Positions 13,486-31,154 are shown, numbered from the stretch's first letter. The stretch is DNA of 64,000 nt from Sandaracinaceae bacterium (GCA_045106715.1 JBGCFC010000009.1:1-64000), one strand, 5' to 3'. Notes: a model not told the origin generated them from the sequence alone. Numbers and translations are program-made.

Positions 13486-15153
13486 TCACGTCCCGCGCCG
13501 CCACGCATGCCGTGCGGCCCACGCGTCGAGGTGGGCGAGGTACAGACTGGTTGCGCGCCAAGCGGCGGCGAGCGCTTCGAGTTCGGGCCCGCGGCGCGGC
13601 GCGGCGTGAGCTCCCCGGCGGACCATGTGTCGAACCAGTTCGTCGGCGCCCTTGAACCCCGCTCGTCGCAGCCGGGCCGCGTCTTCTTCGACACGCGCGC
13701 TTCGGGACGCCGCGACCGCGCGCCAGCCGAGCCGCACCACACCGATCAGGACGCGTTCGAGCGGTCGCCACGCGCGGGTGTCGAGGGGGGGCGGCACGGC
13801 CGCGTCAGGCACGTTCGTCTGGGCGCCCCAGGCGGACTCGATGTCCCGGTTTCCCCCTCGCCCGAGCACCCACACGGGCTGGCCTCGAATCCCGAACGCG
13901 AGCGGGATCAGCGTGGGGGTCTCCCCGGCCCGAGCCACCATCCGCACGGTCCTTCCGGTCGCCCGCCCGAGGTTGGCCAGGTCGGCCCGCTCGCGTTCGG
14001 TGGCGTGTGCGCGTGCCCTCAGAGGCAGCGCCGTGCCTTCCACCACCAGATGGCCGTGCCCGTCGCTCGTCCCCTCGATGAAGAGCAGCCCGGCGCCTTC
14101 CGACCGCAAGTGAGGGGGGCGTGTCCGTGACGTGAACACGCGCTCGAGCTGGGCATCGAGCGGGGTTGAGAAGAGCGCGGACACCGGCGCGGTCCACCAG
14201 TCGACGGGCGCCCCGAGCACCGTCTTGACCTTGCTGCCCGTGCCCAGTCGTCCGTCCAGCGACCGGGTGCCGCCTTCGAGCAGAACCTGATGCCGGGATG
14301 CTTGTCCGTGGGTGAGACTCGCGCCCTTCAGCAGCGATGTCTTCTCGGAGAGCCCCGCGCTGTTCTCCGGGACGACGTGGCTGAACGAGGACAGCTCTCC
14401 TGCCCGGTCGACGACAAACGTCGTCACGCCGCTGTAGCCGACGGTGGTGGAGAAGGGCACGGTGACGATCCCGAACAGCGCCACGGGGTCGAGCGGATGG
14501 TACGGGCGTCGGCCCCAGCCCCGCTCCTCGAGGCTGGCCCGCTCGGCGTTGGACAACGTGTCGGCGAGCCCCAGCGCGTCGCGGAGATCGCGCATGACCG
14601 GCAGGAGGTCGTTCTCCGCTCCACGTCCCCGGATGTGCCCCACCATGCGGAGCAGAGACGCCGACAAGCGGTGAAGGCCAGCGTCGCGGCATTGGTGCAC
14701 CGCACCGAGCACGGCTCCCTCCACCACGATCCCCGCCCCTTCGAGCCCGGTGCCCAAAAGGGCCTGAAGTGCCGTCAAGCTCGCCCTGGCGGCCGCGCGC
14801 TCCTTCTCGCTGACCTCGGTCTGCTCCAGCGGCGTGCTCGACGGAGTCTCCGGCTCGTCGCTCTCCACGGGCCCGTCGGTCGCCAGCGGCAGCGCCCGCG
14901 CCACGGCGAGGCGATGCAGGCAGCGCGGTGCGAGCAGGCAGCCGCAACGGAGGTCGTCGTCGGTGTGCACGCCTTCCGCGCGCACCGTCACGGTCACCTC
15001 CTCGGAAGCTTGCACCTCGACCCACTCGCCGTTCGCGCGCCACGCCCAGCCGTCCGCCAGCGTAGGGTTCTTGTCGAGCTTGCGTTGGAGGCGCGAAGGA
15101 ACGCCCGCGACCGTGTCGGCCACCAGCCCAGCGCGAATGTGCGGCCGCGTCAT
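13486..15153 (-). CDS. SWIM zinc-finger protein (YehQ-like)
   Basis: ATG at 15151-15153 (MTRPHIRAGL), preceded by gagaagg. The SWIM motif CGCLLAPRCLH fits CxCx(n)CxH. The start overlaps the upstream stop (ATGA). Confidence 0.8.
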   Translation of the reverse strand: MTRPHIRAGLVADTVAGVPSRLQRKLDKNPTLADGWAWRANGEWVEVQASEEVTVTVRAEGVHTDDDLRCGCLLAPRCLHRLAVARALPLATDGPVESDEPETPSSTPLEQTEVSEKERAAARASLTALQALLGTGLEGAGIVVEGAVLGAVHQCRDAGLHRLSASLLRMVGHIRGRGAENDLLPVMRDLRDALGLADTLSNAERASLEERGWGRRPYHPLDPVALFGIVTVPFSTTVGYSGVTTFVVDRAGELSSFSHVVPENSAGLSEKTSLLKGASLTHGQASRHQVLLEGGTRSLDGRLGTGSKVKTVLGAPVDWWTAPVSALFSTPLDAQLERVFTSRTRPPHLRSEGAGLLFIEGTSDGHGHLVVEGTALPLRARAHATERERADLANLGRATGRTVRMVARAGETPTLIPLAFGIRGQPVWVLGRGGNRDIESAWGAQTNVPDAAVPPPLDTRAWRPLERVLIGVVRLGWRAVAASRSARVEEDAARLRRAGFKGADELVRHMVRRGAHAAPRRGPELEALAAAWRATSLYLAHLDAWAARHAWRRGT

Positions 15154-18100
15154 GGCTGCACCTTCTCTTTGATCCACCGGGCGACCTGGTCGGGGCTCAG
15201 CGCGGCGATCGGCATGCCCGCGGCGACGAGCCGCTCCGCCGTCGCGACGTCGTAGCGGGCTCCGCCCTCGCCATCGAGGCTGGCCAGTCCGAGGAGTTGC
15301 GCGCCCGACGCCCTGAGCGCGCGAACGGCGCCAAAGAGCACCGAGGGTGGACCGCCGTCCGCGAAGTCCGACACGCACAAGACGAGCGAGCGCGGAGGGC
15401 GGCGGAGCGTCGCGGCCACGTGGGCGAGCGCGTCTCCGATGAGGGTCCCGCCGCCGATCTGCACGGACAGCAGGAGCTCCAGCGGGTCTTGCACGACGTC
15501 GGTCATCTCGATGACTTCGGTGCTGAACGCGAAGAGCCGAAGGTCGAGCCACGGCACACCCGCGAGCACCGCCGCCATCACGGCCGTGTGCACGGTGCTG
15601 GGCTCCATCGAGCCGCTGACGTCCAGCAGGACGGTCACCTCCCACGGCGGCGTGCGATGCGCGAGCGCCTCGAAGGCGATGCGATCGGGGGCCAGCCGCA
15701 CCGTGCCTTCGGCGTCTCGGTAGGCCGTGCGAAGGTTTCGTTCGACCGTGCGCTTGAGGTGCAGCCGCCCGTTGTCCCGTCGGCTCCATCCCGCGGTGCG
15801 GGTGCCGCGGAGAGCGGGCTGAATCTCGCTGGCGAGCGCCCTGGTCAGTTGCTCCACCACGCGCTTGATGAGCGGCCGCAGCCGAGCCAGAGCTCCGTCG
15901 CCGAGGCTGCCTCGCATCTCCAGGATCTGCGCCAGCAGGTCGGCCGACGGGCGCACCGCTTCCGGGTCGAGGTGGGCGAGCAGGTCCGGTCGCTCTCGGG
16001 CGCGATCGACGATGACCTCCTGACGCACCTCGCGGCCGACCAGCCGGTCGAGCTCCTCCGTCCAGCGGCGGGCGTGCACGGCGACGCCTTCTCTTCCCGC
16101 GGTGAGCGGAGGGTTCTCCATCGCGAGCGCCACGGTCTGGCCAAACGTCGACGAGGGTGCGCCGCGCCCGAGCACGAGCTGCACACGGTCCTCCACGGAG
16201 AGCCGCGCTCCGTCCGGCGTGCGCCAGCCACGGGTCCCGGCTTCACGGGTGGCGGTGTCCGGGGCGGGGTCATCTGCATGGGCGTCATTTGCATCGGGGT
16301 CGTCTGCGAAGGGGTCGAAGCGAGGCCCCATCGCGGCGCGCGCAGCGTGGTAGGCGGCGCGATCGAGCTCGACGTGATGCGCGCGTACGAGTGGGTCGAT
16401 CTGGTCGACGCGCGCCATCACGAGGCCCGCTTCTTCGATGTGCTCGAGCAGCCGGTCCCGGTCCGTGCCCCCCAGCGCACGGAACCCGGCGCGCAGGGCG
16501 GGGAGCCGAGCGAGGAAGCGGTCGTCGGAGATCGCGGCGATGCGCCCGACGAGGGCGTCGAAGAGTGCTGGTGACGCGTGCACGAGCCCTGGGGAGCCCA
16601 CGAACAGGCCGGTGAGCGCGAGCGACAGGGCGCGCCGGGTGTCCGGCTCAGCGGCGCCGTCGACGTGCGACGCGAGCCACCGGGCGGCCGGCTCCGGCGG
16701 AGTCAGCTCGGTGAGGAGCTGGGCGGCGAACGCGGCGCCCCGCATCACGGGGCCCGCACGCTCGACGAACTTCGCCAGCAGCGCGGCCAGCCGCGCGCTT
16801 CCGGGATGCGCCAGCACGAGCCGGACGAGGGCGACCGCGTCTTCTGGCTCCTCGCTGCCGATGAGGCCTTCGAGGCGGGTCTCGGCGATTCGGGCGACGC
16901 GCAGCCGTTCCTCCTCCATCGAGTGCACCGCGGCCGCCTGTGTCGCTGGGTCGAAGCCGGGGATCAAACCGGCGGCCAGGCGCGCGAGAAAGGCGCTGTA
17001 GTCGAGCAGCCCGAGCAGCGTGGCGTCGTCGAGGGCGTCGCGGCGAAGCGCGTCGAACCACACGGCCGCAGCGGGGAGGTCGGCCTCGAACGCGGCTTTC
17101 AACGTGGACAGCGCGTCAAGGAAGGACAGTTCTCCGTCTTCTGCCGCGCGGGCGCGCCGTAAGCTCAGCGTCCCGCTGGCCGCCTGCTTCACCGTGACTC
17201 CGGTCGTCCCCGCGACGGCGAGCGTGGCGTCGGTGTTTGGCGTCCACGCGACGCGCCATCGAACCGCGAGCGCTTCGATGCCGCCCTGCGCGACCGACTC
17301 CACGCGGCTGCCGTACGCGATGCCTGAGAGCGCCGCCCGCGTGAGCAGCAAATGCCGCGCGCGATCGCGGCGGTTGCGCCGCACTTCCAGTCGCCGCTCC
17401 TCCGGATCGCCCGGCACGTCCGGCAACCCCAGGCTGGCTAGGTCGGCCCGGAACGCCGCCGTGAGACCGGTGACGGGCGCTCCCTTGGGGAGCTTTCCGC
17501 GCGCATGGCCGATGAGCACGTCCCGGACCGCCAGGTCGAACCCGCGTCCGTCGCCCCCGAGCACGGCGCGGAGCCCCTCACGGAACTCCAGGCGTCCGGG
17601 TTCGGCGAGCCCTCGGAGCGCAGCGAGCCCCCGACTCAAGCGAACGACCTCCACCGCGGCGTCGGTCGATGCCGCGTGGCCGGATCGGCGGAGCGCGCGC
17701 GCCGTCGACACCGCCATGCGGTCGAGGTGTGCATCCACGGTTCCGGTTCCCTCGGCGTACCGCGAGGCGTGCCAGCCGGGGTCGTCGATCCCCGCCGGAT
17801 ACCCGGACCGCGCGTCGAGCAGCCGGTTGGCGTAGGGCACGAGACTGAGCGCGCCCTCGCGCACCGGAGGGACGTCGTCCGCGAGCGTTGCGTCTACCTG
17901 CGGGGCATCCACGAGGGCCGGTGCGTGTGCCGCCCCGACGACCGCCACGCTCCCTTCGCGGCGGCCTTCGAGCTGAGCCCGCATGTGCGCTTCGCGAACG
18001 CGGGTCGCGCGGCTCCCAGGCTGGCCTCCACGGACCGCGTGACCGACGCGCAGCCCCGCGCGGCGAAGGTCTTCCGGGATGCCCTCGGCGCGGGCCTCGA

Positions 18101-18494
18101 CCAGGTCATCCCATCTGTCCAGCAGGGCCACCCCCGCGTCGGACGTCGACGGCTCCGCCTCGTCGCGAGCGACCAGCACGTCGAAGAACACCACGGGGAT
18201 GCCACGCGCTTGGGCCCAGGCGATGGCGACCCGCTCGGGCGAGAACGCCGCGAGCGGCAGCATCGTGACGGAGCTCTCGGTGGCGTGCGCGAGGGCGATC
18301 GGAGGCACGGTGTCGGGGTGCCCGACCCACTCGGCCAAGGGCTGGAAGCAGCGGGGCAGCTCCACGAACAACGTCGACGGCGCCGCCGCCTCGAGCAGGT
18401 CGGGCATGGCGAGCGCCAGCGCGACGGAGTGGTGCCGGACGCCGATCAGAAACGGCGCGCGGGACAGGCAGAGCGCTTCGACCTCTTCGCTCAC
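15150..18494 (-). CDS. Large DUF5682-like protein with C-terminal VWA domain (YehM/YehP-like fusion)
   Basis: The GTG start overlaps the MoxR stop (GTGA). The C-terminus has a von Willebrand A domain with MIDAS motif TVLLDVSGSM...T...D...VLCVSDFADGG. The N-terminal ~750 aa form a helical region of unknown function. The DUF5682 label is from memory of the family, not a search. Confidence 0.75.
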   Translation of the reverse strand: MSEEVEALCLSRAPFLIGVRHHSVALALAMPDLLEAAAPSTLFVELPRCFQPLAEWVGHPDTVPPIALAHATESSVTMLPLAAFSPERVAIAWAQARGIPVVFFDVLVARDEAEPSTSDAGVALLDRWDDLVEARAEGIPEDLRRAGLRVGHAVRGGQPGSRATRVREAHMRAQLEGRREGSVAVVGAAHAPALVDAPQVDATLADDVPPVREGALSLVPYANRLLDARSGYPAGIDDPGWHASRYAEGTGTVDAHLDRMAVSTARALRRSGHAASTDAAVEVVRLSRGLAALRGLAEPGRLEFREGLRAVLGGDGRGFDLAVRDVLIGHARGKLPKGAPVTGLTAAFRADLASLGLPDVPGDPEERRLEVRRNRRDRARHLLLTRAALSGIAYGSRVESVAQGGIEALAVRWRVAWTPNTDATLAVAGTTGVTVKQAASGTLSLRRARAAEDGELSFLDALSTLKAAFEADLPAAAVWFDALRRDALDDATLLGLLDYSAFLARLAAGLIPGFDPATQAAAVHSMEEERLRVARIAETRLEGLIGSEEPEDAVALVRLVLAHPGSARLAALLAKFVERAGPVMRGAAFAAQLLTELTPPEPAARWLASHVDGAAEPDTRRALSLALTGLFVGSPGLVHASPALFDALVGRIAAISDDRFLARLPALRAGFRALGGTDRDRLLEHIEEAGLVMARVDQIDPLVRAHHVELDRAAYHAARAAMGPRFDPFADDPDANDAHADDPAPDTATREAGTRGWRTPDGARLSVEDRVQLVLGRGAPSSTFGQTVALAMENPPLTAGREGVAVHARRWTEELDRLVGREVRQEVIVDRARERPDLLAHLDPEAVRPSADLLAQILEMRGSLGDGALARLRPLIKRVVEQLTRALASEIQPALRGTRTAGWSRRDNGRLHLKRTVERNLRTAYRDAEGTVRLAPDRIAFEALAHRTPPWEVTVLLDVSGSMEPSTVHTAVMAAVLAGVPWLDLRLFAFSTEVIEMTDVVQDPLELLLSVQIGGGTLIGDALAHVAATLRRPPRSLVLCVSDFADGGPPSVLFGAVRALRASGAQLLGLASLDGEGGARYDVATAERLVAAGMPIAALSPDQVARWIKEKVQP

Positions 18495-19636
18495 GAGAGC
18501 AGGCGGCCGCGGTGGTCGTGCAAGGCGCGCCAGAGGGACTCGGGTTGGTCCTCGGCGCGCCGCGAGACGACGCCGTCCCAGTACGCGAGCAACCGGCCGC
18601 GGTCGTCTTCCACGTCTTTGACGACCACGCCGAGCAGCATTCCCACGACCGTCTCCGCGGCCGACGCCTCGAAGAAGCGCGTCGTTCGAAGCACACCCTC
18701 AGCGACCTGCACGGCCTCGGCCGCGCTCATCACCGCGGACGGTTTTTCAACCGCCCAGCCCTCCTCCGTGGTGCCGTACCGGAGGTCGCGAAACAGGGTG
18801 ACCAGTGCCTTCAGCACCGCTTCGTCTGCGGACGCCAGCTTGCCGTCGGAGCCGATGAGGCCGGGCGTGGCCAGCGTGCGTCGGCGCACCAGATCGAGTT
18901 CGTCCTCGAACTCCGCGATGGGCGCGACGATCTCGAAGTTGAATCGCCGCTTGAGCGCCGCGCTCATCTCGGAGACCCCCCGGTCGCGCGTGTTGGCGGT
19001 GGCGATGACGTTGAAGCCGGGGCGCGCGTACACCGTCTCTCCCAGCTCGGCGATGGTCAGCCTGCGTTCGCTGAGCAACGAGACGAGGCCGTCCTGCACC
19101 TCCGACAGGCAGCGGGTGACCTCCTCGATCCGCGCGACCGAACCGTCCTGCATGCAGCGGAGGATCGGCGAAGGAACGAGGGCGTCACGGCTGGGGCCCT
19201 GGCCGATCAGCATCGCGTAGTTCCAGCCGTAGCGAAGCTGCGCCTCGTCGGTGCCCGCGCTGCCCTGCACGGTGCGCTCGCTGCCTCCGCTGATCGCCGC
19301 CGCGAGCAGCTCGGACAGCATCGACTTCGCGGTGCCGGGCTCGCCGACGAGAAGCAGCGATCGGGGACCCGCGAGGGTCACGACGCAGCGCTCCACGAGC
19401 CGCCGGTCGCCGATGAACTTGGCTTCGATCGCACGAGGCGCGGGCGCCCCCTTCTTCTTCTTGCCGACCTTCGCTCCATCCGAGCCACAGATGAAGGTGA
19501 CCACGGCTTCGGGGGTCGTCTTCCACCCTTCCGGGCGCCCTCCGGGCAGTGAGCACAGCAGCGCCAGCTCGTCGGCGTACCGCACCTCGGCAGGCGGGAA
19601 CTGGATGGTTTCGTCGCTCTGGGTGTCGTCGCTCAT
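18491..19636 (-). CDS. MoxR-like AAA+ ATPase (YehL-like)
   Basis: ATG at 19634-19636 (MSDDTQ...). Walker A is LVGEPGTAKS and the sensor region is NVIATANTRD. The length and order match MoxR/AAA_5 proteins. The start overlaps the upstream stop (ATGA). Confidence 0.85.
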   Translation of the reverse strand: MSDDTQSDETIQFPPAEVRYADELALLCSLPGGRPEGWKTTPEAVVTFICGSDGAKVGKKKKGAPAPRAIEAKFIGDRRLVERCVVTLAGPRSLLLVGEPGTAKSMLSELLAAAISGGSERTVQGSAGTDEAQLRYGWNYAMLIGQGPSRDALVPSPILRCMQDGSVARIEEVTRCLSEVQDGLVSLLSERRLTIAELGETVYARPGFNVIATANTRDRGVSEMSAALKRRFNFEIVAPIAEFEDELDLVRRRTLATPGLIGSDGKLASADEAVLKALVTLFRDLRYGTTEEGWAVEKPSAVMSAAEAVQVAEGVLRTTRFFEASAAETVVGMLLGVVVKDVEDDRGRLLAYWDGVVSRRAEDQPESLWRALHDHRGRLLS

Positions 19637-22600
19637 CGTCCGGGCTCCTCGAACTTCGGGCCTTCGCCCGCCTCGATGCGTGCCCAGGCGGCTTCGAAGA
19701 GCGCGTCGGGCGAATACGGGGGCACCGCACCTTCGAACACGCTGTCGAGCGGCGCGTGGCGGTCGGTGTCGTCTCCCCAACCGAACAAGTCGCGTGTCCA
19801 CTTCACGGCGCTGACGCGATGCTTGTCCTTCACCCACAGCCCCGGGATGAACCGGGTGCGTCCGGCGCCTGCACGCTTGCCTTCGATGATGAGCTCTTTG
19901 GCCACGAGCTCGGCGCCGAGCGCGTCGAGGTCCTTGGCTTTCCAGCCGCCGATGGCGATGACGCGCTTGTCCGTCGGCGAAGGCAGGCAGGCCAGCATCA
20001 GATAGTAGGCGGCGGCGTCCGGGCTGACCGAGAGGAGCTTCGCTACATTCTTCACCACCTTGGGCGCGCTCACCCGCGGGTCGCCCGCGCAGCCGTCCGT
20101 GCCCGCGACCTGCTCCGCCAGGGCGATGAGCCGATCGCCCTGTTCGCCCGTGATGAACTCGAGGTTCCGGAGCACACGCTTCGCCGCGACCTGCTCTGCG
20201 ACCAGCGGCTCGCCTTCAAGCAGGGCATCGTAGCGAACGTAGAGGGTCATGCGCCGACGACCGATGAAGACGCGCCGGTCGTCGCCGAGCAGACGCTCGG
20301 GCTTGTCGCCGCGGAAGGTCGACGGCCCACCAGCGGGAAGCGCGGCGGCGACCGTCTCGGCGAGCTCCTCGCGCAGGTGATCGAACTTCTGGTAGAGCGC
20401 TGGGCCCTTCAACCGATCGCGGAGGAGCTTCCAGAACCGAGGCAGCGAGCGAACGAGGAGCGCGTGCCCTTGAGCTTCGTAGAGCGCCTGAACCGGCGGC
20501 ACGCACACGCGCGCCAGGGTGACGGGCACGTAGTCCCATTTGAGGCTGGAGAAGAAACCACGGCTGCCCGTGACGACGCTCGAGCCGGACATCCCCGCGA
20601 CCCTGAGCCCGTCCTTGTCGAAATGGAACTCACGGTCGAGGTGGAGGAACGGCAGGAGCTCGCCCAAGCTGTCCCCGACCACGTCTTCGGCGAGCAGCCG
20701 CGCCGACCAGGAGGGCTCGTCGATGCTCTGCTGCGGACTGTCCGGCGCGCAGCTGGCCAACACCGCCTCGTCACCCGGCGTCAGCGCGGGCACCTTGGGG
20801 TGGTGGCGGAGGTACACCGCGGCGAGCCGCTCGGCCAGGACCTTCGGGTCCCAGAGTTCCTTGTAGTCGCCCGCCATCCACACGGCCGACACCAGCTCCA
20901 TCATGTGCAGCATGTGGCCCGGAGAGAACACAAACGGGTCGTGCTCGAAGCTGGTCTTGGCGGCCTTTCGGCCCTTCTTGACCAGCTTGAACGGGTCGGC
21001 TTCGATCTCGGCGCTCGCCCACATCGTGGCCTCGGCATCCGTGAGCCCCGTGGCTTCCCGCAGGAACGGGAGCGCCTTCTTGATCGGCAGCGGGCCGGCC
21101 TCTCGAACGTGCGCCGCGACCTCGTCGATGCGCTCCGGCGTAAGCCAGCATGGCCCGTAGAGGTTGTCCGTCGGGTCGTCGACGATGACGAACTCCCCCT
21201 TGGGCGCGTACTCGACGAAGGTGAAGTACGCCGCCTCTTTGAACCCGAGCTGCCACGCCAGCACGCGGTTGTCGCCGAGCCTGGAGAAGGTCGGGTTGTA
21301 CGGGCCCTTGCAGGCTTCCTTCGTGTTCTCGCGCCGGAACGCCATCCGGTAGTGCGCAGGGTCCTCAAAGCCGTGCTCGACGAGCTTGTGGGCGAACGCC
21401 GCGAGCTGGGTGCGCGCCTCCTCCGCTTTCTTGGGCGCCAGCGCCATGCGGTAGAGCACGTACGTTCCGTGCCCGAGCGCGGGCTGCCAGCAGTGATGGC
21501 CCCACGCGTACTCCTCGGTGTGTTCGTCGGACAGGGGGCGGTCGAACCGGAGCCGAAGCTCGGCCAGCTCGGACACGAGCGTCGGCCCCGGAATACGGCG
21601 CCGGTAGTCGGCGCCCATCGGGGTTGCCCAGTCACCGAGGGCGTCGGTCAGCGCCGGGTCGCACAGCGTGCGCTTCGGCAAGCTGGGGACGGCAGCCTCC
21701 TCTGCGTTGTCCTCCGGTGCGGCCTCGCCCCCGCTGTAGGCCTGCGCCACCTTCGCGTGGAGGCGCGACACCTGACCCGCGAGATGCGCCGCCCCGATGA
21801 GCGCGGTGCGCAGAGGGTCATACGTGGTGGGCAGCGCCGCATCGACCGCCGAAGCCACCGACGGATGGGGCTCGAACGCGCGGTAGCTCGACGTGCTGAC
21901 CTTGTGTGCCTCATCGCCTCGGGCCGCGGAGAGGATGCCCTCGAGCGCGGCGGCCTCGATCGTGGCCAGCCGTTTTGACGCATCCGGATCGGAGGGCACG
22001 CAATACGGGAGCGCGATCGCCGGCGGGAAGGGGCGCTTCGATACGCTCAGGAAGTCGCTTCGTCCGGTGCGCGAGCGCCCGTTGAGTTCGTGCAACTCCC
22101 TGCGGCGATAGCCGTAGGTGATGGCGCACCAATCGCTTCGTGCGGGCAGGCGGAGGGTGCCCTCCAACCGTTGTGTCGCGGCCCCGAGCTCGCCAGACGC
22201 GTCCCAGTGGATGAGGCCGGATTCTTGATACCCGAACGCATACACGTCGTTCTCGACGCGGACAGGAGCGCCTTCGCGTGGCTCGAGTTCGAGTCGCCAG
22301 TGCCAGATGACCTCGCTCGGCGCCTCGGTTGGGGCACTCTCGCCGCTCTTCGGATCGTAGCGGAGCCAGCCGCTGTCCGAGAGCAGATGAGGGGCACCGT
22401 CATGCACGATGGGACGCCCCTCCAGATGCGACAAGCGCACCGTGGTGGACCCGGCCTTGATCAGCGCGCCCGCGAGCACGTCGCCGCTGTCGAGCCGAAC
22501 CGCGGCACGCGCGCTCGTTCCGTAGATCGCTTTCGGGGTAAGCGGATGAACAGCTCCGGGTGCGCTCGCCCAGTAGTAGCCGGAGACGTCCCAGCGGCCG

Positions 22601-24339
22601 CCCACGAAAACCAGAAGGTCCTCGCCCACGTAGAGCGCGATGTGCGCGTACTCGTGCGATTTCGGCACGGTGTGTTCGAGCACTTTCGAGCCGTCCCGGT
22701 CGAGCACGACGACGTCGTGGCCATGCGCCATCGTGAGGTAGGGCGGCGTGAGGAACAGGTTCGGGACATCTCGGTCCGACGTGGCCATCGCTTCGAACTC
22801 GGGAAAGCAGACTTCCTCGACACATCCGAACCGCAGCTGGCTGGCGAACGACTCCGCCACGTCGATGCGGGAGAGGGCCTCGGCGAGCGCGGGGATGCGA
22901 GAGGCGTACGCTCCCGGGAACGCGTCCAGGAGGTTGAGCGCACTCTGGGTGTCGACCAAGCCGCCGGTACCGACGGGCGCCAGGCGTTCCGAGACGGCCT
23001 CGCTGAGCATCTCGAGGAAGCGGGGCAGCTCCGGCTCGGGAAGGCTCTGATACGCGCGCGGCCGCAGCCTGCCGGCGTGACCCACGAACCTGGCGCGAGC
23101 GATCTCGTCGCCGGCGATGAGCGGGATGTCCTCGCTCGGCCAGCGCTGCCCTCGGTAGTAGTTGTCGAGGTTCGTGAAGCGCACGAACGCATGGGGGATC
23201 CCCAGGCGGAGCGACGTCTCCACCGTCGTGAACGACAGCGGCTTGTCCTCGGCCCCGAGCGGATGTCCGTCATCGATCAGCCGCGGCGCCGCCTTCTCGA
23301 TCAGCCCGAAGGCGAGCTCCGTGCGGCAGGCGCTCAGCATTCCGGTCATCCAGGCGGCCGCGGTTCGGCTGCTCTGTCCGGGCGCGTTGGCATCGACGAT
23401 CGCGTCGAGCAGACCCCATGCGTCCAGCTGCTCCAGCCAGGGCTCGGCCTTGATCTCCATCGGCCAGAGATCGAGCAGGGCGCTCGCGACCTCGGAGTCG
23501 GCGCTGGCCGCGGCCCCGAGGGCCTTCTTGGCCTTGGTGAAGAAGCCCTTGGCGGCGCGCCTGAGCGCGCTCGCGGACGCGATCTGAGAGATGAACTCGA
23601 GCTCCGCTTCGGCCGGCTTGATCTTGGCGGCCTTGGCCAGCTTGCCGATGTCCTTGAGCTGCGTCGGGGACGGGGGCAGGCCACCCATGGTGCGGCGGAC
23701 ACACACGCGGAGATACGCGTCCAAGCCGTCTTTCCCGCGGGCCGTGAGCTCGTCGGCGTAGTTGGTGAGGCTCTTGACGGCGAGCGCTCCGGCGAGCGCG
23801 AAGTCGACGAAGCTCTGCTCACGCAGGTCCTCGTCGGCCTCCAGCCCGTACTGACGTTCGGCCGCCCGCGCCTTCTCGAAGTACTGCTGCGCGTAGCTGA
23901 GGTTGTCGTGTTCGATGAACGCGCGCGCGGCCTCCTCGTAATACGACGGCAAGAAGTGCGGCACCGAGCCGGCGAGCTGCGCGCCGATCGCGTCGAGCCC
24001 CTCCTTGGCGGCGCCCGGCTTGGACTTCATGCGCCGAATCGACTTCTTCATCTCCTCGAGCACGTCGAGCGCGAAGCGCGCGTTCTTCTTGTCGTTCACG
24101 AGCGCCCACGCCGGGAAGCCGAGCGGCTGCCGTGAGACGCGCCCGACATCGTCCCGTCCGGCAGCGGCGAAGCCGAGCAGCTCCATCTCGAGGTCGACGG
24201 CCTCGTCGATCGTGCCCGGGCCGAGCCGCACCATCGGCGTGGACAACGCGGGGTGCGAGTACGCGCGCGCGACGAGCACGTCGAGGTCTTTGGGCTTCGC
24301 GGAGAGCGGCAGTACGCTGCCTGCGGCGAGCGCACTCAT
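19633..24339 (-). CDS. Giant (1568 aa) protein of unknown function, paralog A of a tandem pair
   Basis: ATG at 24337-24339 (MSALAAGSVLPLSAKPKDLDVL...) with GAGGAG 9 nt upstream. The stop overlaps the MoxR start, and the start overlaps the WGR gene stop. The ORF is continuous and GC3-rich. No recognisable catalytic motif was seen by eye. Confidence 0.7.
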   Translation of the reverse strand: MSALAAGSVLPLSAKPKDLDVLVARAYSHPALSTPMVRLGPGTIDEAVDLEMELLGFAAAGRDDVGRVSRQPLGFPAWALVNDKKNARFALDVLEEMKKSIRRMKSKPGAAKEGLDAIGAQLAGSVPHFLPSYYEEAARAFIEHDNLSYAQQYFEKARAAERQYGLEADEDLREQSFVDFALAGALAVKSLTNYADELTARGKDGLDAYLRVCVRRTMGGLPPSPTQLKDIGKLAKAAKIKPAEAELEFISQIASASALRRAAKGFFTKAKKALGAAASADSEVASALLDLWPMEIKAEPWLEQLDAWGLLDAIVDANAPGQSSRTAAAWMTGMLSACRTELAFGLIEKAAPRLIDDGHPLGAEDKPLSFTTVETSLRLGIPHAFVRFTNLDNYYRGQRWPSEDIPLIAGDEIARARFVGHAGRLRPRAYQSLPEPELPRFLEMLSEAVSERLAPVGTGGLVDTQSALNLLDAFPGAYASRIPALAEALSRIDVAESFASQLRFGCVEEVCFPEFEAMATSDRDVPNLFLTPPYLTMAHGHDVVVLDRDGSKVLEHTVPKSHEYAHIALYVGEDLLVFVGGRWDVSGYYWASAPGAVHPLTPKAIYGTSARAAVRLDSGDVLAGALIKAGSTTVRLSHLEGRPIVHDGAPHLLSDSGWLRYDPKSGESAPTEAPSEVIWHWRLELEPREGAPVRVENDVYAFGYQESGLIHWDASGELGAATQRLEGTLRLPARSDWCAITYGYRRRELHELNGRSRTGRSDFLSVSKRPFPPAIALPYCVPSDPDASKRLATIEAAALEGILSAARGDEAHKVSTSSYRAFEPHPSVASAVDAALPTTYDPLRTALIGAAHLAGQVSRLHAKVAQAYSGGEAAPEDNAEEAAVPSLPKRTLCDPALTDALGDWATPMGADYRRRIPGPTLVSELAELRLRFDRPLSDEHTEEYAWGHHCWQPALGHGTYVLYRMALAPKKAEEARTQLAAFAHKLVEHGFEDPAHYRMAFRRENTKEACKGPYNPTFSRLGDNRVLAWQLGFKEAAYFTFVEYAPKGEFVIVDDPTDNLYGPCWLTPERIDEVAAHVREAGPLPIKKALPFLREATGLTDAEATMWASAEIEADPFKLVKKGRKAAKTSFEHDPFVFSPGHMLHMMELVSAVWMAGDYKELWDPKVLAERLAAVYLRHHPKVPALTPGDEAVLASCAPDSPQQSIDEPSWSARLLAEDVVGDSLGELLPFLHLDREFHFDKDGLRVAGMSGSSVVTGSRGFFSSLKWDYVPVTLARVCVPPVQALYEAQGHALLVRSLPRFWKLLRDRLKGPALYQKFDHLREELAETVAAALPAGGPSTFRGDKPERLLGDDRRVFIGRRRMTLYVRYDALLEGEPLVAEQVAAKRVLRNLEFITGEQGDRLIALAEQVAGTDGCAGDPRVSAPKVVKNVAKLLSVSPDAAAYYLMLACLPSPTDKRVIAIGGWKAKDLDALGAELVAKELIIEGKRAGAGRTRFIPGLWVKDKHRVSAVKWTRDLFGWGDDTDRHAPLDSVFEGAVPPYSPDALFEAAWARIEAGEGPKFEEPGR

Positions 24340-25535
24340 GACGCGTTCTCCTCTTCTTCGATCTTGCGAGCGGCGTAGATGAGCGACGCCATGCGCACGC
24401 CCTCCGAGTAGGTCACCGGCGGGACGTCGTTCAGGCGCAGGGTCTTGCCGTTGAGTTCGAAGCTCAGGTCTTCGGTGACCGCCTCGCCCCACGGGTCTTC
24501 GGCGCCCACCCAGAAGTTCGCCTGATGCAGCGCGCCGTCCTCGTGCACGCTCGTGGTCGCGTAGCCGCCGCTCATGCGGCACCCGATCGCACGGACGCGC
24601 GCGGTTGCGTGGCGCGCCTCCTCGAACTGGCCGTTCTCGTAGTCGGTGACCGACGTCACGTCGTCGGCGATCCGGTCGGGCTTCGCGAAGGTCTCGCGCA
24701 TCAGCTGGCCCAGGCCCTGCGCGATGCCGAGCTCCATCGCGAGCTCCCGGAAGTCGGCCAGCTCCGCGAGCAGGATCGGATGCGGAATGCGCACGGTCTC
24801 CGCGCCGAGCCAAACGCTCTCCCCGTCGAGGTTGACGAGCCCGAGGCCGCGCTCCGGGTCGACGTCCTTCAAGAAGCCGATGCGTTCGTCATCGTCGAGC
24901 GAGGCAGGGGCGATCACGGTGTTCTCGAGCAGCGCCCGCCACGTGGCGTCGGGCCAGACCTTTTCGAGCAGCGCCGAGGGCACCGGGAGGGAGCGCAGCA
25001 TCCAGCGCTCGACCGTCTCGAGGCACTCCTCGGCGTGCGCCTTCATCATCTTGGCGACGTCGAGCATCATCTCGCCCTGAGGCGAGGTCTTCATCTTCTT
25101 GGAGACCGACTTCAGCTCTTTGCCCTTCGCGTTCCGGGCGACGAGCTTGCCGTCCTTGATCGCGAGGGAACCTCCGGCGTCGCACGGGACCCACCCGTCG
25201 GTCTCGGGCGGCGGCTCCGGAGCCTTCTTCTTGGTCGGTGCCTTCTTCTTGGCGGTCGCCTTCTTCGCGGGTGCCTTCTCTGCCGGAGTCGCTGCCGTTT
25301 CGGTCGCTGTGTCGCTGGCATCCTCGGACGTCTGCTCGACGTAGCCCTTCTTGGTCTTCTGCCCGATGAGCTTGTTGGCCTCCTTGAGCGCCGCGGCTTC
25401 GTCCCCGAAGGACTTCTCCTTCGTCTGGCCGTTCGTGCCGATGCGCCCGTAGCGAATCGTCAGGTTCGACCCACTCTGTTCGACTTCCCAGAACTTCGAC
25501 GATTTGGCGTCTTCGTACGTCAGGTGCTTGCGCAT
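24336..25535 (-). CDS. WGR-domain + DUF4132 (MolR-like) protein
   Basis: ATG at 25533-25535 with a GGAAGGA SD. The N-terminal WGR signature is KFWEVEQSGSNLTIRYGRIGTNGQTKEKSF...KKGY. A Lys/Ala/Pro-rich linker follows. The C-terminal ~220 aa match my recollection of DUF4132, the domain at the C-terminus of E. coli MolR/YehI. Confidence 0.8.
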   Translation of the reverse strand: MRKHLTYEDAKSSKFWEVEQSGSNLTIRYGRIGTNGQTKEKSFGDEAAALKEANKLIGQKTKKGYVEQTSEDASDTATETAATPAEKAPAKKATAKKKAPTKKKAPEPPPETDGWVPCDAGGSLAIKDGKLVARNAKGKELKSVSKKMKTSPQGEMMLDVAKMMKAHAEECLETVERWMLRSLPVPSALLEKVWPDATWRALLENTVIAPASLDDDERIGFLKDVDPERGLGLVNLDGESVWLGAETVRIPHPILLAELADFRELAMELGIAQGLGQLMRETFAKPDRIADDVTSVTDYENGQFEEARHATARVRAIGCRMSGGYATTSVHEDGALHQANFWVGAEDPWGEAVTEDLSFELNGKTLRLNDVPPVTYSEGVRMASLIYAARKIEEEENAS

Positions 25536-25607
25536 GCGACTTCGTCCTTCCGTGGCGGTCTGCACCGCCAGATCTCTTCATTCATCGACGGGTGCCACCC
25601 GCCCGGC

Positions 25608-28600
25608 TCAGCTCCCGGGCTCGTCGAGGCCAGGGCCGTCGCCCGCTTCGATGCGCGCCCACGCCGCCTCGTACAGCGCGTCCGGGGACATCGGCGGGAA
25701 GGCACCCCGAAAGACCGCGTCGTCCGGGGCGTGACGATCGGTTTCGGTGCCCCACCCGAACAGCTCCCGCGTCCACCTCACCGCGCTCACGCGGTGCTTG
25801 TCTTTGACCCAGAGCCCCGGAACGAACCGCGTCCGGCCGGCGCCGGCGCGCTTGCCTTCCACGATGTGCGCTCCCGCGCCGAGTTCGGCTCCCAACGCGT
25901 CGAGCGTGTTGGCGTCCCAGCCCGCGAGTGCCCCCACGTGTTTGTCCGTCGGCGACGGCAAGCACGCGAGCATCAAGAAGTAGGCGGCCGCATCGGAGCT
26001 GACCGAAAGCCGTTCCGCGACGCCCTCGACGACCTTCGGAGCGCTCACCCTGGGGTCTCCCGCGCAGCGCTCGGAGCCGGCGACCTGCTCGGCCAACGCG
26101 ATCATCCGCGCGAGGGTCGGGCCCATCAGGAAGGTCAGGTCCTGCCGCAGCCGCCGCACATCTTGGTGGGCGTCCATGGGTGTGTCGCCCTCCACGATGG
26201 CGTCGTACCGCAGCCACAGCCGCGCCTGTCCGGTCTTCAGGTACACGCACCGGTCGTCGCCCAAGAGCGTCTTGGGCTTCTTGCCTTGGAACGACGACGG
26301 TCCGCCCTTCGGCAGCGCGGCTCGCACCGTGTCCAACACGTCCCGGTGAAGCTCGATCTCCTGGTAGAGGCCAGGTCCCTGAAGGCGCTCTTGCAGCAAG
26401 CGGAACACGCGCGGGAGCGAGCGCACCAGGAGCGCATGCCCGTCGCACGCGTACAGACCGCGCACGAACGGGACCACGATGCGCTCGAGCGACTCGGGGA
26501 TGTAGTCCCACTTCAGATTCGAGTGAAACCCGCGGCCCGTGGTTCGTCCGCCGGTCACGCCGCGGACGTGGTAGCCGTCCTTGTCGAAGTGGTGCTCGCG
26601 GTCCTGATGAAGGAAGGGCAGAAGGGCCTCGACCCCGTCGGTGTCGTTAGCGAGCAGGCGCGCCGCCCAGGACGGCTCGTCGATGGTGAGGTCGGCTTCG
26701 TCACGGATGTGTTTGGCCAAGACGGCTTCGTCGCCCGCCGTGAGGGTCGGCAGCTGCGGTCGGTGCCGAAGGAAGACGCCCGCGAGCCGTTCGGCGAGGA
26801 CCTTCGGATCCCAGAGCTCCTTGTAGTCCCCGGAGGTGAAGACCGAAGAGCCGAGGTCGAGGGTGTGAAGCATGTGTCCCGGAGACGAGACGAAGGGGTC
26901 ATGTTCGAAGGACGTGCGGCCGACCCAGCGCAGGCTCGCCTTCTTGACCAGCTTGAAGGGGTCGGAATGGAACTCGGCGAGCGCCCACATGGTGGCCTCG
27001 CTCTCGGTCATGCCCGTGGCCTCACACAGCAGCGGCACGGCCTTCCGGATCGGGAGCGGACCGGCCGCCTCGACATGGGCGACGACCTCCTCGATGCGGT
27101 CCGCCGTGAGCCAGCATGGGCCGTAGAGGTTGTCGTCTGGGTCGGCGATGACTTCGAAGACGCCCTTCGGGGCGTACTCGAGGAACGTGAACATCGCGTC
27201 TTCTTCGTAGCCGAGTTGCCACGCGAAGACGCGGTTGTCTCCACGCGCCGCGAGCGTTGGGTGATAGGGGCTCTTGCAGATGGAGGCCGTGTTCTCCTTC
27301 CGGAATGCGAGCCGGTAGTGGTCCCGGTCTTCGAACCCGTGCTGAAGAAGCAGCCGCGCGAACGAAGCGAGCTGCTCCCGCGCAGCCGAGGCCTTCTTCG
27401 GCGCCAGCGCCATTCGGTAGAGCACGTACGCGCCGTGCCCGAGTCCGGGCTGCCAGCAGTGGTGGCCCCAGATGTACTCGTCGTGCCCTTTGGGGACCGG
27501 GCGATCGAATCGCAGCCGAAGCTCCCCTAGCTCGGAGGCGAGTGTCGGGCCCTTGGTTCGGTCGCGGTAGCCGGCATCCAGCGGGTAGGCGAAGTCGCCC
27601 AACGCGTCCGTCAGCGTAGGGTTGCCGACGTCGCGCTTGGGGAGGGCGTCAGCGCTCTTCTTCTTCGAGGCGGTCTTCCTCGGCAAGGTGTCTCCCGAAG
27701 AAGAAACTGCGCTCGTGGACTCGATGAGATCCCCGACATCCTCGCGCACTTCCTCGTAGGCGGCGGCGACGTGCCCGGCGTAGTGCGCGATCCCGGCGAG
27801 CGCGGCGCGGAGCGGCGCGTATGAGGTCGTCACCAGTGCGTCGAGCGCCTCGAGCAGGCCTCGGTGCGGCTTGAACTTCGTCCAGCTGGAGGCGGTGACC
27901 TCGAGCGCCTTGGGCTTCTGCGCCACCTCGAGCAGGCTGGCCAGCTCGTCGGCCTGGATCGTCGAGAGCTGTGCTGACGCCGCTGCGTCGGAGGGCCGGT
28001 ACATGGGAAGGGCCATCTTGCCGGCGAAGCGTCGCTCCGCAGCCCCGAGAAGGTCATCCCCGTCGGAGTATTGGACGCCTCGCACGTCACGAAGCTCCTC
28101 CGCCTCGTAGGACTCCTCGAAGAGGCAGGGCGCCTCGCGATGGGGGAGCTGGATGAGCGCGTCGGACGTACCGCTCTGGTCCACCATCGGTCCCGGGACC
28201 GCGCCCTCTCCGTCCTCTGCGCCGCCTTCGCTCATCGCGTAGGCGAACACCCCGTTGCCCGCGCGCACGGGCGCCCCTTCGCGGGGATCGAGCTCGACGT
28301 GGAACGCCCAGCGCTTCGTCTGCTCGGCTTCGTCTTCCACAAACGCGCCCGTCGAGGCGTCGTACCGGACCCACCCCTCGTCGCGGGGCACCAGCACGGT
28401 GCCGTCGTGTACCTGAGGACGCCCGGCGAGGTCCTCGCTGCGAAGCGTCGTCGATCCCGCGCGGATGAGGCCGGCGGCGATGACGTCCCCGCCGGGGAGC
28501 CGAACCGCGTTGTCCGAGTTCCAGACCCACCCGCTGATGGGGTGCACGTCTTTGGGCGCGCTGGCCCAGTAGTAGCCGCGGTAGTTGTAGCCGTACTCGT

Positions 28601-31148: not shown

Positions 31149-31154
31149 GACAGA

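What the first reader, a model, noticed from the sequence alone, without database searches (positions are those of the whole stretch)
15150..25535. Chain of start/stop codon overlaps indicates tight translational coupling
Four consecutive junctions overlap start and stop codons:
- At 24336-24339, the WGR stop TGA overlaps the giant A ATG.
- At 19633-19636, the giant A stop overlaps the MoxR ATG.
- At 18491-18494, the MoxR stop overlaps the VWA-fusion GTG (GTGA).
- At 15150-15153, the VWA stop overlaps the SWIM ATG.

Four such overlaps in a row argue for stoichiometric co-expression of one complex and support the chosen internal start codons. The ORF-finder's longer N-terminal extensions are Arg-rich junk.
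Basis: seen in the sequence. Interest (0 to 1): 0.5.

Follow-up and report, generated by a model that had tools for sequence, protein, structure and literature searches.

The report
Overlapping start/stop codons in MoxR operon
Four neighbouring genes of a conserved but functionally uncharacterised ATPase operon do share their stop and start codons, a common bacterial arrangement that probably links their translation but does not show that the proteins are made in equal amounts.

Summary
On the minus strand, ATGA at 24339-24336, ATGA at 19636-19633, GTGA at 18494-18491 and ATGA at 15153-15150 each overlap a stop codon with the next gene's start codon.

The chosen starts give proteins identical, first to last residue, to the public NCBI annotation of this Sandaracinaceae (Myxococcota) MAG. 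They also fit the codon-composition change points, conserved N-termini of orthologues and Shine-Dalgarno motifs. The longer ORF-finder extensions are 27-33% Arg out-of-frame read-through.

The genes form a YehL-type MoxR operon, related to E. coli yehF-yehQ:
- giantB
- WGR+DUF4132
- giantA
- MoxR AAA+
- DUF5682+VWA fusion
- SWIM-like protein

Tight junctions recur in related operons from Myxococcota, Planctomycetota and Actinomycetota and in E. coli. About 72% of junctions inside the operon are 4-nt overlaps, against about 15% in flanking genes. The geometry varies by clade, and none of 52 fully scorable loci has four of four.

Translational coupling by termination-reinitiation is plausible but untested. 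"Stoichiometric" is not supported: characterised MoxR:VWA pairs are 6:1, and the MoxR-to-VWA junction alone lacks an SD and uses GTG.

The finding is real but ordinary. The operon's function remains unknown.

The parts
25608..30344 (-). giantB, a 1578-aa paralogue of giantA (60% identity). It is the first gene of the operon and is not part of the overlap chain.
   Evidence: The GTG 30344 start gives a protein identical to NCBI MFK7984973. There is no Pfam hit. Its C-terminus is ...GLDEPGS, encoded with GACGAG, so it carries no SD.
25536..25607 (-). 72-nt intergenic gap between giantB and the WGR/DUF4132 gene. It carries GGAAGGA 9 nt upstream of ATG 25535.
   Evidence: No terminator-like site lies on the minus strand here. 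The RNA fold has z = -1.28, which is not significant.
24336..25535 (-). WGR + Lys/Ala/Pro-rich linker + DUF4132 protein, 399 aa.
   Evidence: Pfam WGR 2.1e-20 and DUF4132 4e-21. The protein is identical to NCBI MFK7984972.
24336..24339 (-). Junction 1: ATGA. The WGR/DUF4132 stop overlaps the giantA start. SD GAGGAG lies at 24353-24348 with an 8-nt spacer.
   Evidence: A -4 overlap is available in 61/68 orthologous loci: 21/24 Planctomycetota and 40/41 Actinomycetota. The two closest myxobacterial loci have -8.
19633..24339 (-). giantA, 1568 aa, from a conserved family with no Pfam or PDB relative. The models show a small alpha/beta N-terminal domain, an alpha-solenoid, a beta-rich region and a C-terminal winged-helix-like region.
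19633..19636 (-). Junction 2: ATGA. The giantA stop overlaps the MoxR start. SD GAGGAG lies at 19650-19645 with an 8-nt spacer and is encoded by the conserved F-E-E C-terminal motif.
   Evidence: The -4 overlap is found in 36/41 Actinomycetota and 2/2 Myxococcota, but in only 1/29 Planctomycetota. One Streptomyces atratus plasmid copy has a true gap here.
18491..19636 (-). MoxR-type AAA+ ATPase (AAA_5) of the YehL subfamily, 381 aa.
   Evidence: Pfam AAA_5 5e-38. It is 47% identical to E. coli YehL over its full length. Walker A GxPGTAKS, Walker B R-h-EE-h-TR, ATAN and LKRRF are invariant in 82/82 sequences. The best PDB sequence hits are midasin AAA domains and NorQ.
18491..18494 (-). Junction 3: GTGA. 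The MoxR stop overlaps the DUF5682-VWA start. No SD-like motif lies upstream (CACCGCGGCCGCCTGCTCTC).
   Evidence: GTG 18494 is the only canonical start upstream of the conserved N-terminus. In orthologues the junction is -4 in 15/29 Planctomycetota and 6/42 Actinomycetota. 33 other Actinomycetota loci have a different overlap, and three Bradymonadales-type loci have -1. The commonest non-(-4) spacing across all loci is -14 (27 of 75).
15150..18494 (-). DUF5682 + VWA (CoxE-like) fusion protein, 1114 aa, equivalent to E. coli YehM + YehP. The MIDAS motif DVSGS is at residue 958 (nt 15623-15609).
   Evidence: Pfam DUF5682 6.8e-110 and VWA_CoxE 6.1e-45. BLASTP to YehP 5e-45 and YehM 3e-17. The protein is identical to NCBI MFK7984969.
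15150..15153 (-). Junction 4: ATGA. The VWA stop overlaps the SWIM start. AAGGTG lies at 15164-15159 with a 5-nt spacer.
   Evidence: The -4 overlap is found in 35/37 Actinomycetota, 10/20 Planctomycetota and 2/2 Myxococcota loci. It also occurs at E. coli yehP-yehQ.
13486..15153 (-). SWIM-like zinc-finger protein, 555 aa. The CxCx5CxH motif is at residues 70-80 (nt 14946-14914).
   Evidence: There is no Pfam hit for the window protein. C70, C72, C78 and H80 are invariant in 53-54 of 54 orthologues, including YehQ. YehQ itself passes Pfam SWIM at 31.5 bits. The protein is identical to NCBI MFK7984968.

Best explanation
The four overlaps are the true gene boundaries of a tightly packed, conserved operon in a Sandaracinaceae genome. 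The gene order is giantB, WGR-DUF4132, giantA, MoxR/YehL ATPase, DUF5682-VWA, SWIM.

Shown: the sequence, the reading frames, identity to the public annotation, conservation of tight junctions in related operons, and enrichment of SD motifs.

Inferred mechanism: a ribosome terminating at UGA re-initiates one base upstream at the overlapping AUG or GUG (termination-reinitiation).
- At three junctions an SD embedded in the last codons of the upstream gene would help. These are GAGGAG twice and AAGGTG.
- This would make translation of giantA, MoxR, DUF5682-VWA and SWIM depend on the gene before.
- It would propagate any regulation acting on the WGR gene down the operon.

The coupling need not be equimolar. 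The SD-less GUG at the MoxR-to-VWA junction would be expected to re-initiate less efficiently. That would fit the 6:1 ATPase:VWA ratio of characterised MoxR systems. This last step is speculation.

The products most likely act together as a MoxR hexamer with a VWA/MIDAS adaptor, working on or with the DUF4132, giant and SWIM proteins. The substrate and cellular role are unknown.
For: Junctions and starts:
- Junction sequences.
- Same starts as the NCBI annotation.
- GC3 change points and out-of-frame Arg-rich extensions.
- Alternative starts lack an SD or would delete conserved residues.

Conservation:
- The same gene order occurs in most of 80 loci from three phyla, with a minority permuted or inverted.
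- -4 overlaps are available at 61/68, 39/72, 21/75 and 48/60 junctions.
- 34 of 52 fully scorable loci have at least three -4 junctions, and 31 of 52 have all four junctions tight.
- The -4 rate is 72% inside the operon against 15% in flanks.
- SD-like 4-mers lie upstream of 71-94% of overlapped starts, against 15.6% background.
- ATGA outnumbers GTGA although A is rare at codon position 3.

Operon structure:
- No terminator-like sites at the gene junctions or in the giantB-WGR gap on the minus strand; only two weak intragenic matches.
- No stable RNA structure at the junctions, z from -0.7 to +1.25. This favours reinitiation rather than unmasking of a hairpin.

Functional links between the proteins:
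- Gene fusions: DUF5682+VWA are fused here but separate in E. coli.
- DUF4132+giant are fused in P0081, and apparently in P0146.

Literature:
- TeRe coupling at -4 overlaps, and enrichment of such overlaps for heteromeric complexes (PMC6728339, PMC10666635).
Against: - No expression, ribosome-profiling or proteomic data exist for this organism, so coupling is inferred from geometry alone.
- In E. coli one of the tested overlapping pairs (bioBF) showed no coupling (PMC6728339).
- The exact geometry is not conserved. Junction 3 is usually a different overlap in Actinomycetota and -1 in Bradymonadales-type loci.
- Junction 2 is usually a short gap in Planctomycetota, and a true gap of more than 100 nt in one Streptomyces plasmid copy.
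- None of 52 scorable loci has 4/4.
- Strong SDs at three junctions would also permit independent initiation.
- Counts over related genomes are not independent.
- SWIM has an untested alternative GTG 8 codons upstream, at 15177.
Confidence: 0.75

Rival explanations
1. The overlaps are neutral by-products of operon compaction in a high-GC genome where TGA stops and ATG/GTG starts dominate. Each gene initiates independently on its own SD, and the overlap has no regulatory role.
For: - About 15% of co-directional pairs overlap in most prokaryotic groups (PMC6728339).
- 25/162 flanking pairs here also have -4 overlaps.
- TGA is the stop of 22 of 31 called genes.
- Three junctions carry good SDs that could recruit ribosomes de novo.
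- Geometry drifts between clades among -4, -1, -8, -14 and short gaps.
Against: - Junction 3 has no SD and a GTG start, so independent initiation there should be poor.
- The -4 frequency inside the operon is about five times that of flanks in the same genomes.
- ATGA is preferred over the compositionally favoured GTGA.
- The -4 overlap at VWA-to-SWIM is retained from E. coli to Myxococcota.
Confidence: 0.18
2. One reading: the chain of overlaps enforces equimolar (stoichiometric) synthesis of the subunits of one complex.
For: - Short overlaps are enriched 4.5-fold for heteromeric-complex subunits in E. coli (PMC10666635).
- Synteny and fusions link the proteins.
Against: - Equal amounts would need 100% reinitiation (PMC6728339).
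- Known MoxR:VWA assemblies are 6:1: CbbQ6O1 and NorQ6:NorD1. RavA:ViaA is about 350:90 per cell from one operon.
- Junctions differ in start codon and SD strength.
- giantB, the paralogue of giantA, is outside the chain.
Confidence: 0.1
3. One or more starts are mis-assigned, so the chain of four is partly an annotation artefact. Candidates are SWIM at GTG 15177 or GTG 15123, DUF5682-VWA at ATG 18407, and giantA at GTG 24279.
For: - Alternative in-frame start codons exist.
- Agreement with NCBI is agreement between gene-calling logics, not experimental evidence.
- Called N-termini of giant homologues are typically 3-13 residues longer than giantA's.
Against: - Downstream alternatives would remove residues conserved in orthologues. 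Examples are giantA G7 (invariant) and P11, DUF5682 residues 1-14 (aligned in many loci and to YehM from residue 14), and MoxR residues 8-17 (aligned to YehL).
- Upstream alternatives lie in Arg-rich, low-GC3 sequence that overlaps the previous gene, and they lack an SD.
- The -4 position is the one conserved in orthologues.
Confidence: 0.07

Closest known systems
E. coli K-12 yehF-yehH(molR pseudogene)-yehI-yehK-yehL-yehM-yehP-yehQ cluster (YehL subfamily of MoxR AAA+ ATPases)
   Same: - MoxR is 47% identical to YehL over its full length.
- DUF5682 (YehM) and VWA (YehP) are both present.
- The SWIM CxC...CxH motif is shared with YehQ.
- A WGR domain (YehF) and a DUF4132 domain (YehI) are present.
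- yehP-yehQ overlap by ATGA and yehM-yehP overlap by 8 nt.
   Different: - DUF5682 and VWA are fused into one 1114-aa protein here.
- The ~1570-aa giant proteins have no detectable similarity to YehI (hhalign probability 0.1%).
- There is no YehK.
- The giant gene is duplicated.
- The function of the E. coli cluster is itself unknown. No paper on DUF5682 was found, and the few papers mentioning DUF4132 did not appear from their titles and abstracts to address its function.
Overlapping unidirectional gene pairs coupled by termination-reinitiation (Huber et al. 2019, PMC6728339; Huber et al. 2023, PMC10666635)
   Same: - Co-directional genes with -4 ATGA/GTGA overlaps.
- An SD inside the 3' end of the upstream gene at three of four junctions.
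- Products that plausibly interact.
   Different: - Nothing has been measured here.
- One junction lacks an SD.
- Four consecutive -4 overlaps is the extreme of the pattern: 0 of 52 related loci have 4/4.
Characterised MoxR/VWA chaperone pairs: CbbQ/CbbO, NorQ/NorD, RavA/ViaA
   Same: - An AAA_5 MoxR ATPase is encoded next to a VWA/MIDAS partner.
- NorQ is among the PDB sequence hits.
- The MIDAS DxSxS motif is present in the VWA domain.
   Different: - The MoxR subfamily differs (YehL rather than CGN or RavA).
- The VWA is fused to DUF5682.
- There are three or four extra conserved partners.
- No known substrate lies in the neighbourhood.
- The known pairs assemble 6:1, not 1:1.
MoxR-vWA ternary conflict systems (Kaur et al. 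2020, PMC7159879)
   Same: - A MoxR + vWA core with additional large components.
- Found in Actinomycetota, Planctomycetota and myxobacteria.
   Different: - The bpMoxR Pfam hit is below threshold, 23.5 against 27 bits.
- The paper does not mention SWIM, WGR, DUF4132 or YehL.
- No PADLOC model matches apart from a weak WGR hit.
- No effector domains were detected.
SWIM-DUF5691-AAA-DUF5682-VWA five-gene variant (e.g. Methylosinus trichosporium plasmid pOB3b_03, L083)
   Same: - The same MoxR, DUF5682, VWA and SWIM core.
- -4 overlaps at two junctions in the annotation.
   Different: - The gene order differs.
- DUF5691 replaces DUF4132 + giant.
- DUF5682 and VWA are separate genes.

Membership tests
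-4 overlapping gene pairs with termination-reinitiation coupling | Co-directional genes whose stop and start codons share the tetranucleotide ATGA, GTGA or TTGA. | tested here: met
   Four junctions were read directly. All frames were checked.
-4 overlapping gene pairs with termination-reinitiation coupling | A Shine-Dalgarno motif inside the upstream gene at a suitable distance from the overlapped start. | tested here: inconclusive
   Met at junctions 1 and 2 (GAGGAG, 8-nt spacer) and junction 4 (AAGGTG, 5-nt spacer). Not met at junction 3. An SD is not strictly required in all species (PMC6728339).
-4 overlapping gene pairs with termination-reinitiation coupling | Translation of the downstream gene depends on translation of the upstream gene. 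| not testable with these tools
   This needs reporter constructs or ribosome profiling.
YehL-type MoxR system (E. coli yehF-yehQ-like cluster) | A MoxR AAA+ ATPase of the YehL subfamily with intact Walker A, Walker B, sensor and Arg-finger motifs. | tested here: met
   AAA_5 5e-38. 47% identity to YehL. The motifs are invariant in 82/82 sequences. The subfamily is named in PMC3893208.
YehL-type MoxR system (E. coli yehF-yehQ-like cluster) | Adjacent DUF5682 (YehM) and VWA/MIDAS (YehP) proteins. | tested here: met
   DUF5682 6.8e-110 and VWA_CoxE 6.1e-45 lie in one fused protein. The DVSGS MIDAS motif is present.
YehL-type MoxR system (E. coli yehF-yehQ-like cluster) | A SWIM zinc-finger protein (YehQ). 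| tested here: inconclusive
   Pfam SWIM is not detected in the window protein, and is below the gathering score in orthologues other than YehQ. The CxCx5CxH motif is invariant in 53-54/54 orthologues including YehQ. BLASTP to YehQ found no hit at E <= 0.01.
YehL-type MoxR system (E. coli yehF-yehQ-like cluster) | WGR and DUF4132 domain proteins upstream (YehF, MolR, YehI). | tested here: met
   WGR 2.1e-20 and DUF4132 4e-21 in the 399-aa protein. WGR is 52% identical to the YehF N-terminus.
YehL-type MoxR system (E. coli yehF-yehQ-like cluster) | The large protein is homologous to YehI. | tested here: not met
   hhalign of the giant profile against YehI gives probability 0.1%. No Pfam domain is found in 28 family members.
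MoxR-vWA ternary conflict systems / known anti-phage defence systems | A match to bpMoxR, VMAP, iSTAND or PADLOC models above threshold. | tested here: not met
   bpMoxR scores 23.5 bits against a cut-off of 27. PADLOC gives only WGR_XIII at 1.6e-5.

The most novel reading that the evidence does not exclude
The operon encodes an uncharacterised, multi-phylum MoxR(YehL)-VWA remodelling machine. Its specificity module is a ~1,570-aa protein family with no Pfam or PDB relative, built of an alpha-solenoid, a beta-rich region and a winged-helix-like region, paired with a DUF4132 (here WGR-DUF4132) protein.

In this lineage the giant is duplicated, which would give two alternative modules for one ATPase core.

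The graded junctions (SD-bearing ATGA against SD-less GTGA) would set a deliberately unequal subunit ratio, for example six MoxR to one DUF5682-VWA, rather than equimolar output.
Probability: 0.25. Interest if true: 0.5.

Novelty: already known. Interest (0 to 1): 0.2.

Why it matters
For the finding itself, little. 4-nt start/stop overlaps are a textbook feature of compact operons, and these gene models are already in GenBank with the same starts.

Its practical value is as a sanity check. The ORF-finder's longer versions should not be used. The six genes should be treated as one expression unit.

The wider point is that the YehL-type MoxR/DUF5682/VWA/SWIM system has no known function, although it occurs from E. 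coli to myxobacteria, planctomycetes and streptomycetes. The conserved tight junctions and gene fusions are circumstantial evidence that its products work together. That could guide co-purification experiments.

Tried and rejected
- RNA structure at the junctions, as in hairpin-unmasking coupling: folds are no more stable than shuffles, z from -0.73 to +1.25. A plus-strand 'terminator' at 15139-15161 is on the wrong strand.
- Rfam: no family in 13000-31500.
- Sigma-70 promoter scan: none found, which is not informative for this phylum.
- Anti-phage defence assignment: PADLOC gives nothing useful. The system is on megaplasmids but not in phages; the VT1-Sakai hit is flanking host yehP.
- Giant protein identity:
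  - No Pfam, NCBIfam or PDB sequence hit, alone or as a profile.
  - No relation to YehI.
- The look-up of encoding contigs for P0001 returned nothing.
- E. coli yehP +1 frameshift site (PMC2790909): judged by eye, the cassette does not appear conserved at the corresponding VWA position (around IGGGTLIGDALAHVAATLRR). It was not pursued.
- Literature searches for DUF5682, DUF4132, yehLMPQ, and SWIM+WGR+MoxR turned up no functional study in the result lists.
Full report
**1. The observation**

The window is about 70% G+C. On the minus strand, the ORF listing gives five long consecutive ORFs between 13486 and 25565 and a sixth at 25608-30401. I read the four junctions base by base.
- 24339-24336 = ATGA
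- 19636-19633 = ATGA
- 18494-18491 = GTGA
- 15153-15150 = ATGA

In each case TGA ends the upstream ORF. The ATG or GTG that begins one base earlier is in frame with the downstream ORF.

**2. Are these the real starts?**

Five independent lines agree.

(a) Public annotation. giantA from ATG 24339 is 100% identical over 1568 aa to an NCBI protein from a Sandaracinaceae bacterium MAG.
- SWIM, 555 aa
- DUF5682, 1114 aa
- AAA ATPase, 381 aa
- giantA, 1568 aa
- DUF4132, 399 aa
- giantB, 1578 aa

The 409-aa GTG-25565 version of the WGR protein is absent. This is agreement with another gene caller, not experimental proof.

(b) Codon composition. A start-codon-blind GC3 change-point scan puts the onset of coding signal within 9 codons of each chosen start.

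(c) The longer extensions. The ORF-finder extensions of giantA, MoxR and SWIM are 27-33% Arg, with GC3 0.45-0.51 and GC1 0.84-0.92. The gene bodies have GC3 0.85-0.91. The extensions are the preceding gene read out of frame, so 'Arg-rich junk' is right. The DUF5682-VWA gene has no extension: GTG 18494 is the first start of its ORF.

(d) Conserved N-termini. Orthologue alignments begin at query residues 1-17.
- giantA G7 is invariant and P11 nearly so in 28 family members.
- E. coli YehL aligns from MoxR residue 8, and YehM from fusion residue 14.
- Downstream alternatives (giantA GTG at residue 21, MoxR GTG at residue 18, fusion ATG at residue 30) would remove conserved sequence.
- Only SWIM keeps an untested alternative, GTG 15177, 8 codons upstream and without an SD.

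(e) Shine-Dalgarno motifs.
- GAGGAG lies exactly 8 nt upstream of the giantA ATG and of the MoxR ATG.
- AAGGTG lies 5 nt upstream of the SWIM ATG.
- GGAAGGA lies 9 nt upstream of the WGR ATG.
- The GTG of DUF5682-VWA has none.

**3. More than chance?**

Within the window:
- A occupies only 5.3% of third codon positions and G 39.5%. Composition alone would therefore favour GTGA about eight-fold, yet three of four junctions are ATGA.
- Outside the operon, 2 of 16 co-directional pairs offer a -4 overlap.

In high-GC orthologous loci, the flanks give 25/162 (15%) and the operon interior 110/152 (72%). The 15% matches the literature figure for overlapping co-directional pairs in most prokaryotic groups (PMC6728339).

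Four in a row at 12-15% gives p about 2e-4 to 6e-4. With closely spaced pairs only (36%) it gives 0.016. These numbers assume independent junctions and genomes, which is not strictly true.

**4. What the genes are**

Pfam results:
- 399-aa protein: WGR + DUF4132
- 381-aa protein: AAA_5 (MoxR)
- 1114-aa protein: DUF5682 + VWA_CoxE
- giantA, giantB and the SWIM protein: nothing

Relation to E. coli K-12. The layout there is yehF (WGR), yehH (molR pseudogene), yehI (DUF4132), yehK, yehL (MoxR), yehM, yehP (VWA), yehQ (SWIM).
- The window MoxR is 47% identical to YehL.
- The fusion matches YehM and YehP.
- The WGR domain matches YehF.
- YehL names one of the seven MoxR subfamilies (PMC3893208).

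Motifs.
- The ATPase motifs are invariant in 82 sequences: GxPGTAKS, an unusual R-h-E-E-h-T-R Walker B, ATAN and LKRRF.
- The VWA domain keeps a DVSGS MIDAS motif.
- The last protein fails Pfam SWIM, but its CxCLL[AS]PxCxH motif is invariant in 53-54 of 54 orthologues, including YehQ.

The giant proteins.
- giantA and giantB are 60% identical.
- The family has about 526 representatives at 50% identity, nearly all 1,550-1,700 aa.
- It has no Pfam, NCBIfam or PDB relative and no detectable link to YehI.
- AlphaFold models of the two halves have pLDDT 83.
  - N half: a small alpha/beta domain, an alpha-solenoid (about residues 77-518) and a beta-rich region.
  - C half: mixed alpha/beta.

I found no published function for the system. 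It is not among the MoxR-vWA ternary systems of Kaur et al.: that paper does not mention SWIM, WGR, DUF4132 or YehL. It is not in PADLOC.

**5. Conservation of the junctions**

A scan of one genome per species with the MoxR protein returned 216 relatives. I kept 80 loci, from Myxococcota/Bradymonadales, Planctomycetota and Actinomycetota. Most have the same order, DUF4132, giant, MoxR, DUF5682-VWA, SWIM.

A -4 overlap is available at:

| Junction | Loci with -4 available |
|---|---|
| DUF4132 to giant | 61/68 |
| giant to MoxR | 39/72 |
| MoxR to DUF5682-VWA | 21/75 |
| VWA to SWIM | 48/60 |

By clade:
- Junction 1 is -4 in 21/24 Planctomycetota and 40/41 Actinomycetota. It is -8 in the two closest myxobacterial loci.
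- Junction 2 is -4 in 36/41 Actinomycetota and 2/2 Myxococcota. It is mostly a short gap in Planctomycetota.
- Junction 3 is -4 in 15/29 Planctomycetota and a different overlap in 33/42 Actinomycetota. It is -1 (TGATG) in Bradymonadales-type loci. Across all loci, -14 is the commonest spacing at this junction (27 of 75).
- Junction 4 is -4 in 35/37 Actinomycetota, 10/20 Planctomycetota and 2/2 Myxococcota. It is also -4 in E. coli yehP-yehQ.

Annotated examples:
- RefSeq annotation of a Streptomyces atratus plasmid copy shows -4 at three junctions and a true gap at giant-to-MoxR.
- A Methylosinus plasmid carries a variant, SWIM-DUF5691-AAA-DUF5682-VWA, with two -4 overlaps.

Chain statistics for the 52 loci in which all four junctions could be scored:
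- none has 4/4
- 25 have the pattern -4, -4, other overlap, -4
- 34 have at least three -4 junctions
- 31 have all four junctions tight

SD-like 4-mers precede 71-94% of the overlapped starts, against 15.6% of random windows.

Tight junctions are thus a conserved property of the operon family. The exact geometry is free to drift, and the window is the extreme case.

Gene order is permuted in a few loci (L002, L030, L068), and SWIM is inverted upstream in some planctomycetes. This indicates two modules, DUF4132+giant and MoxR+DUF5682-VWA+SWIM. It fits junction 2 being the least constrained.

**6. Mechanism**

No terminator-like sites lie at the gene junctions or in the giantB-WGR gap on the minus strand; the scan found only two weak intragenic matches. 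There are no Rfam elements. The 90-nt regions around the junctions fold no better than shuffled sequence. Coupling by unmasking of a hairpin therefore has no support.

The best-supported model is termination-reinitiation at the overlapping codons. This has been shown experimentally for native -4 pairs in E. coli and Haloferax, and it depends steeply on distance (PMC6728339, PMC10666635). Here it is an inference from geometry.

One detail concerns the GAGGAG that serves as SD for MoxR. It is encoded by the F-E-E motif near the C-terminus of the giant family. In giantB, which is followed by a 72-nt gap, the corresponding codons are GACGAG.

**7.

Overlaps raise the prior that products interact: 30.4% against 6.8% of E. 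coli pairs encode complex subunits. Most overlapping pairs still do not encode known complexes. Equal output would need 100% reinitiation.

The characterised MoxR/VWA machines are not equimolar:
- CbbQ6O1
- one NorD per NorQ hexamer
- about 350 RavA to 90 ViaA per cell

The one junction here that joins the ATPase to its VWA partner is the only one with GTG and no SD. If anything, this suggests a step down in synthesis. That is my speculation.

Evidence for 'one complex' is limited to three things. These are conserved synteny, the DUF5682+VWA fusion (the two are separate in E. coli), and DUF4132+giant fusions in P0081 and apparently P0146.

**8. Verdict**

The start-site inference is supported. 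Translational coupling is plausible. Stoichiometric co-expression is not supported.

The feature is ordinary and the gene models are already public. The residual interest lies in the uncharacterised YehL-type system and its giant subunit family, not in the overlaps.

Noticed in passing
window 5455-7992 (+): An 845-aa protein with hits to the Major Vault Protein shoulder domain (PF11978, 6e-16), a Vault repeat and SPFH/Band 7. It looks like a bacterial MVP-like protein.
   Followed up: no
window 25608-30344 (-) and 19633-24339 (-): The ~1570-aa giant gene is duplicated in this genome, at 60% identity, flanking the WGR-DUF4132 gene. None of the 80 related loci showed a second copy in the sequence held. 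The duplicate is not part of the overlap chain, and its C-terminal codons lack the SD that giantA carries for MoxR.
   Followed up: partly
window 49319-50242 (-) / 50239-51804 (-): This is the only other ATGA overlap in the window. A 521-aa protein with no Pfam domain is followed by an FHA/YscD-like protein.
   Followed up: no
window 36516-40283 (+) and 40286-43966 (+): Two tandem proteins of about 1250 aa, apparently paralogues, both carry DUF3857. The first also carries a transglutaminase core. They are separated by 2 nt, with a GTGA-type overlap also available.
   Followed up: no
window 30480-31148 (+): A SUKH/SMI1-KNR4 family protein (25.0 bits, just below the 25.4 cut-off) is transcribed divergently from giantB. 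The ORF-finder's longer version (from 29907) overlaps the giantB N-terminus.
   Followed up: no
window 8050-11541 (-) and 11942-13339 (-): Proteins with RCC1 repeats plus MopE metal-binding motifs, and with MopE motifs alone, lie immediately downstream of the operon. I think such proteins are typical of myxobacterial secreted proteins.
   Followed up: no
window 24336-25535 (-), residues ~85-115: A Lys/Ala/Pro-rich, histone-H1-like linker (AEKAPAKKATAKKKAPTKKKAPEPPPE) joins WGR and DUF4132. Most orthologues lack the WGR domain altogether: their alignments start at residue ~100-125.
   Followed up: partly
L081 (E. coli K-12 yehP): yehP has been reported to undergo +1 ribosomal frameshifting at codon 291 in reporter constructs (PMC2790909). 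By eye, the cassette does not appear conserved in the window's VWA domain.
   Followed up: partly
L083 (Methylosinus trichosporium plasmid pOB3b_03) 4058-11383: A variant system, SWIM-DUF5691-AAA-DUF5682-VWA, lacks DUF4132 and giant. It sits among IS elements and toxin-antitoxin genes on a plasmid. This suggests a conserved MoxR/DUF5682/VWA/SWIM core with exchangeable accessory modules.
   Followed up: no
L002, L030, L068; L013, L014, L031, L058, L067: Gene order is permuted to MoxR, DUF5682-VWA, SWIM, DUF4132, giant in three loci. In five planctomycete loci, SWIM is inverted upstream.
   Followed up: partly
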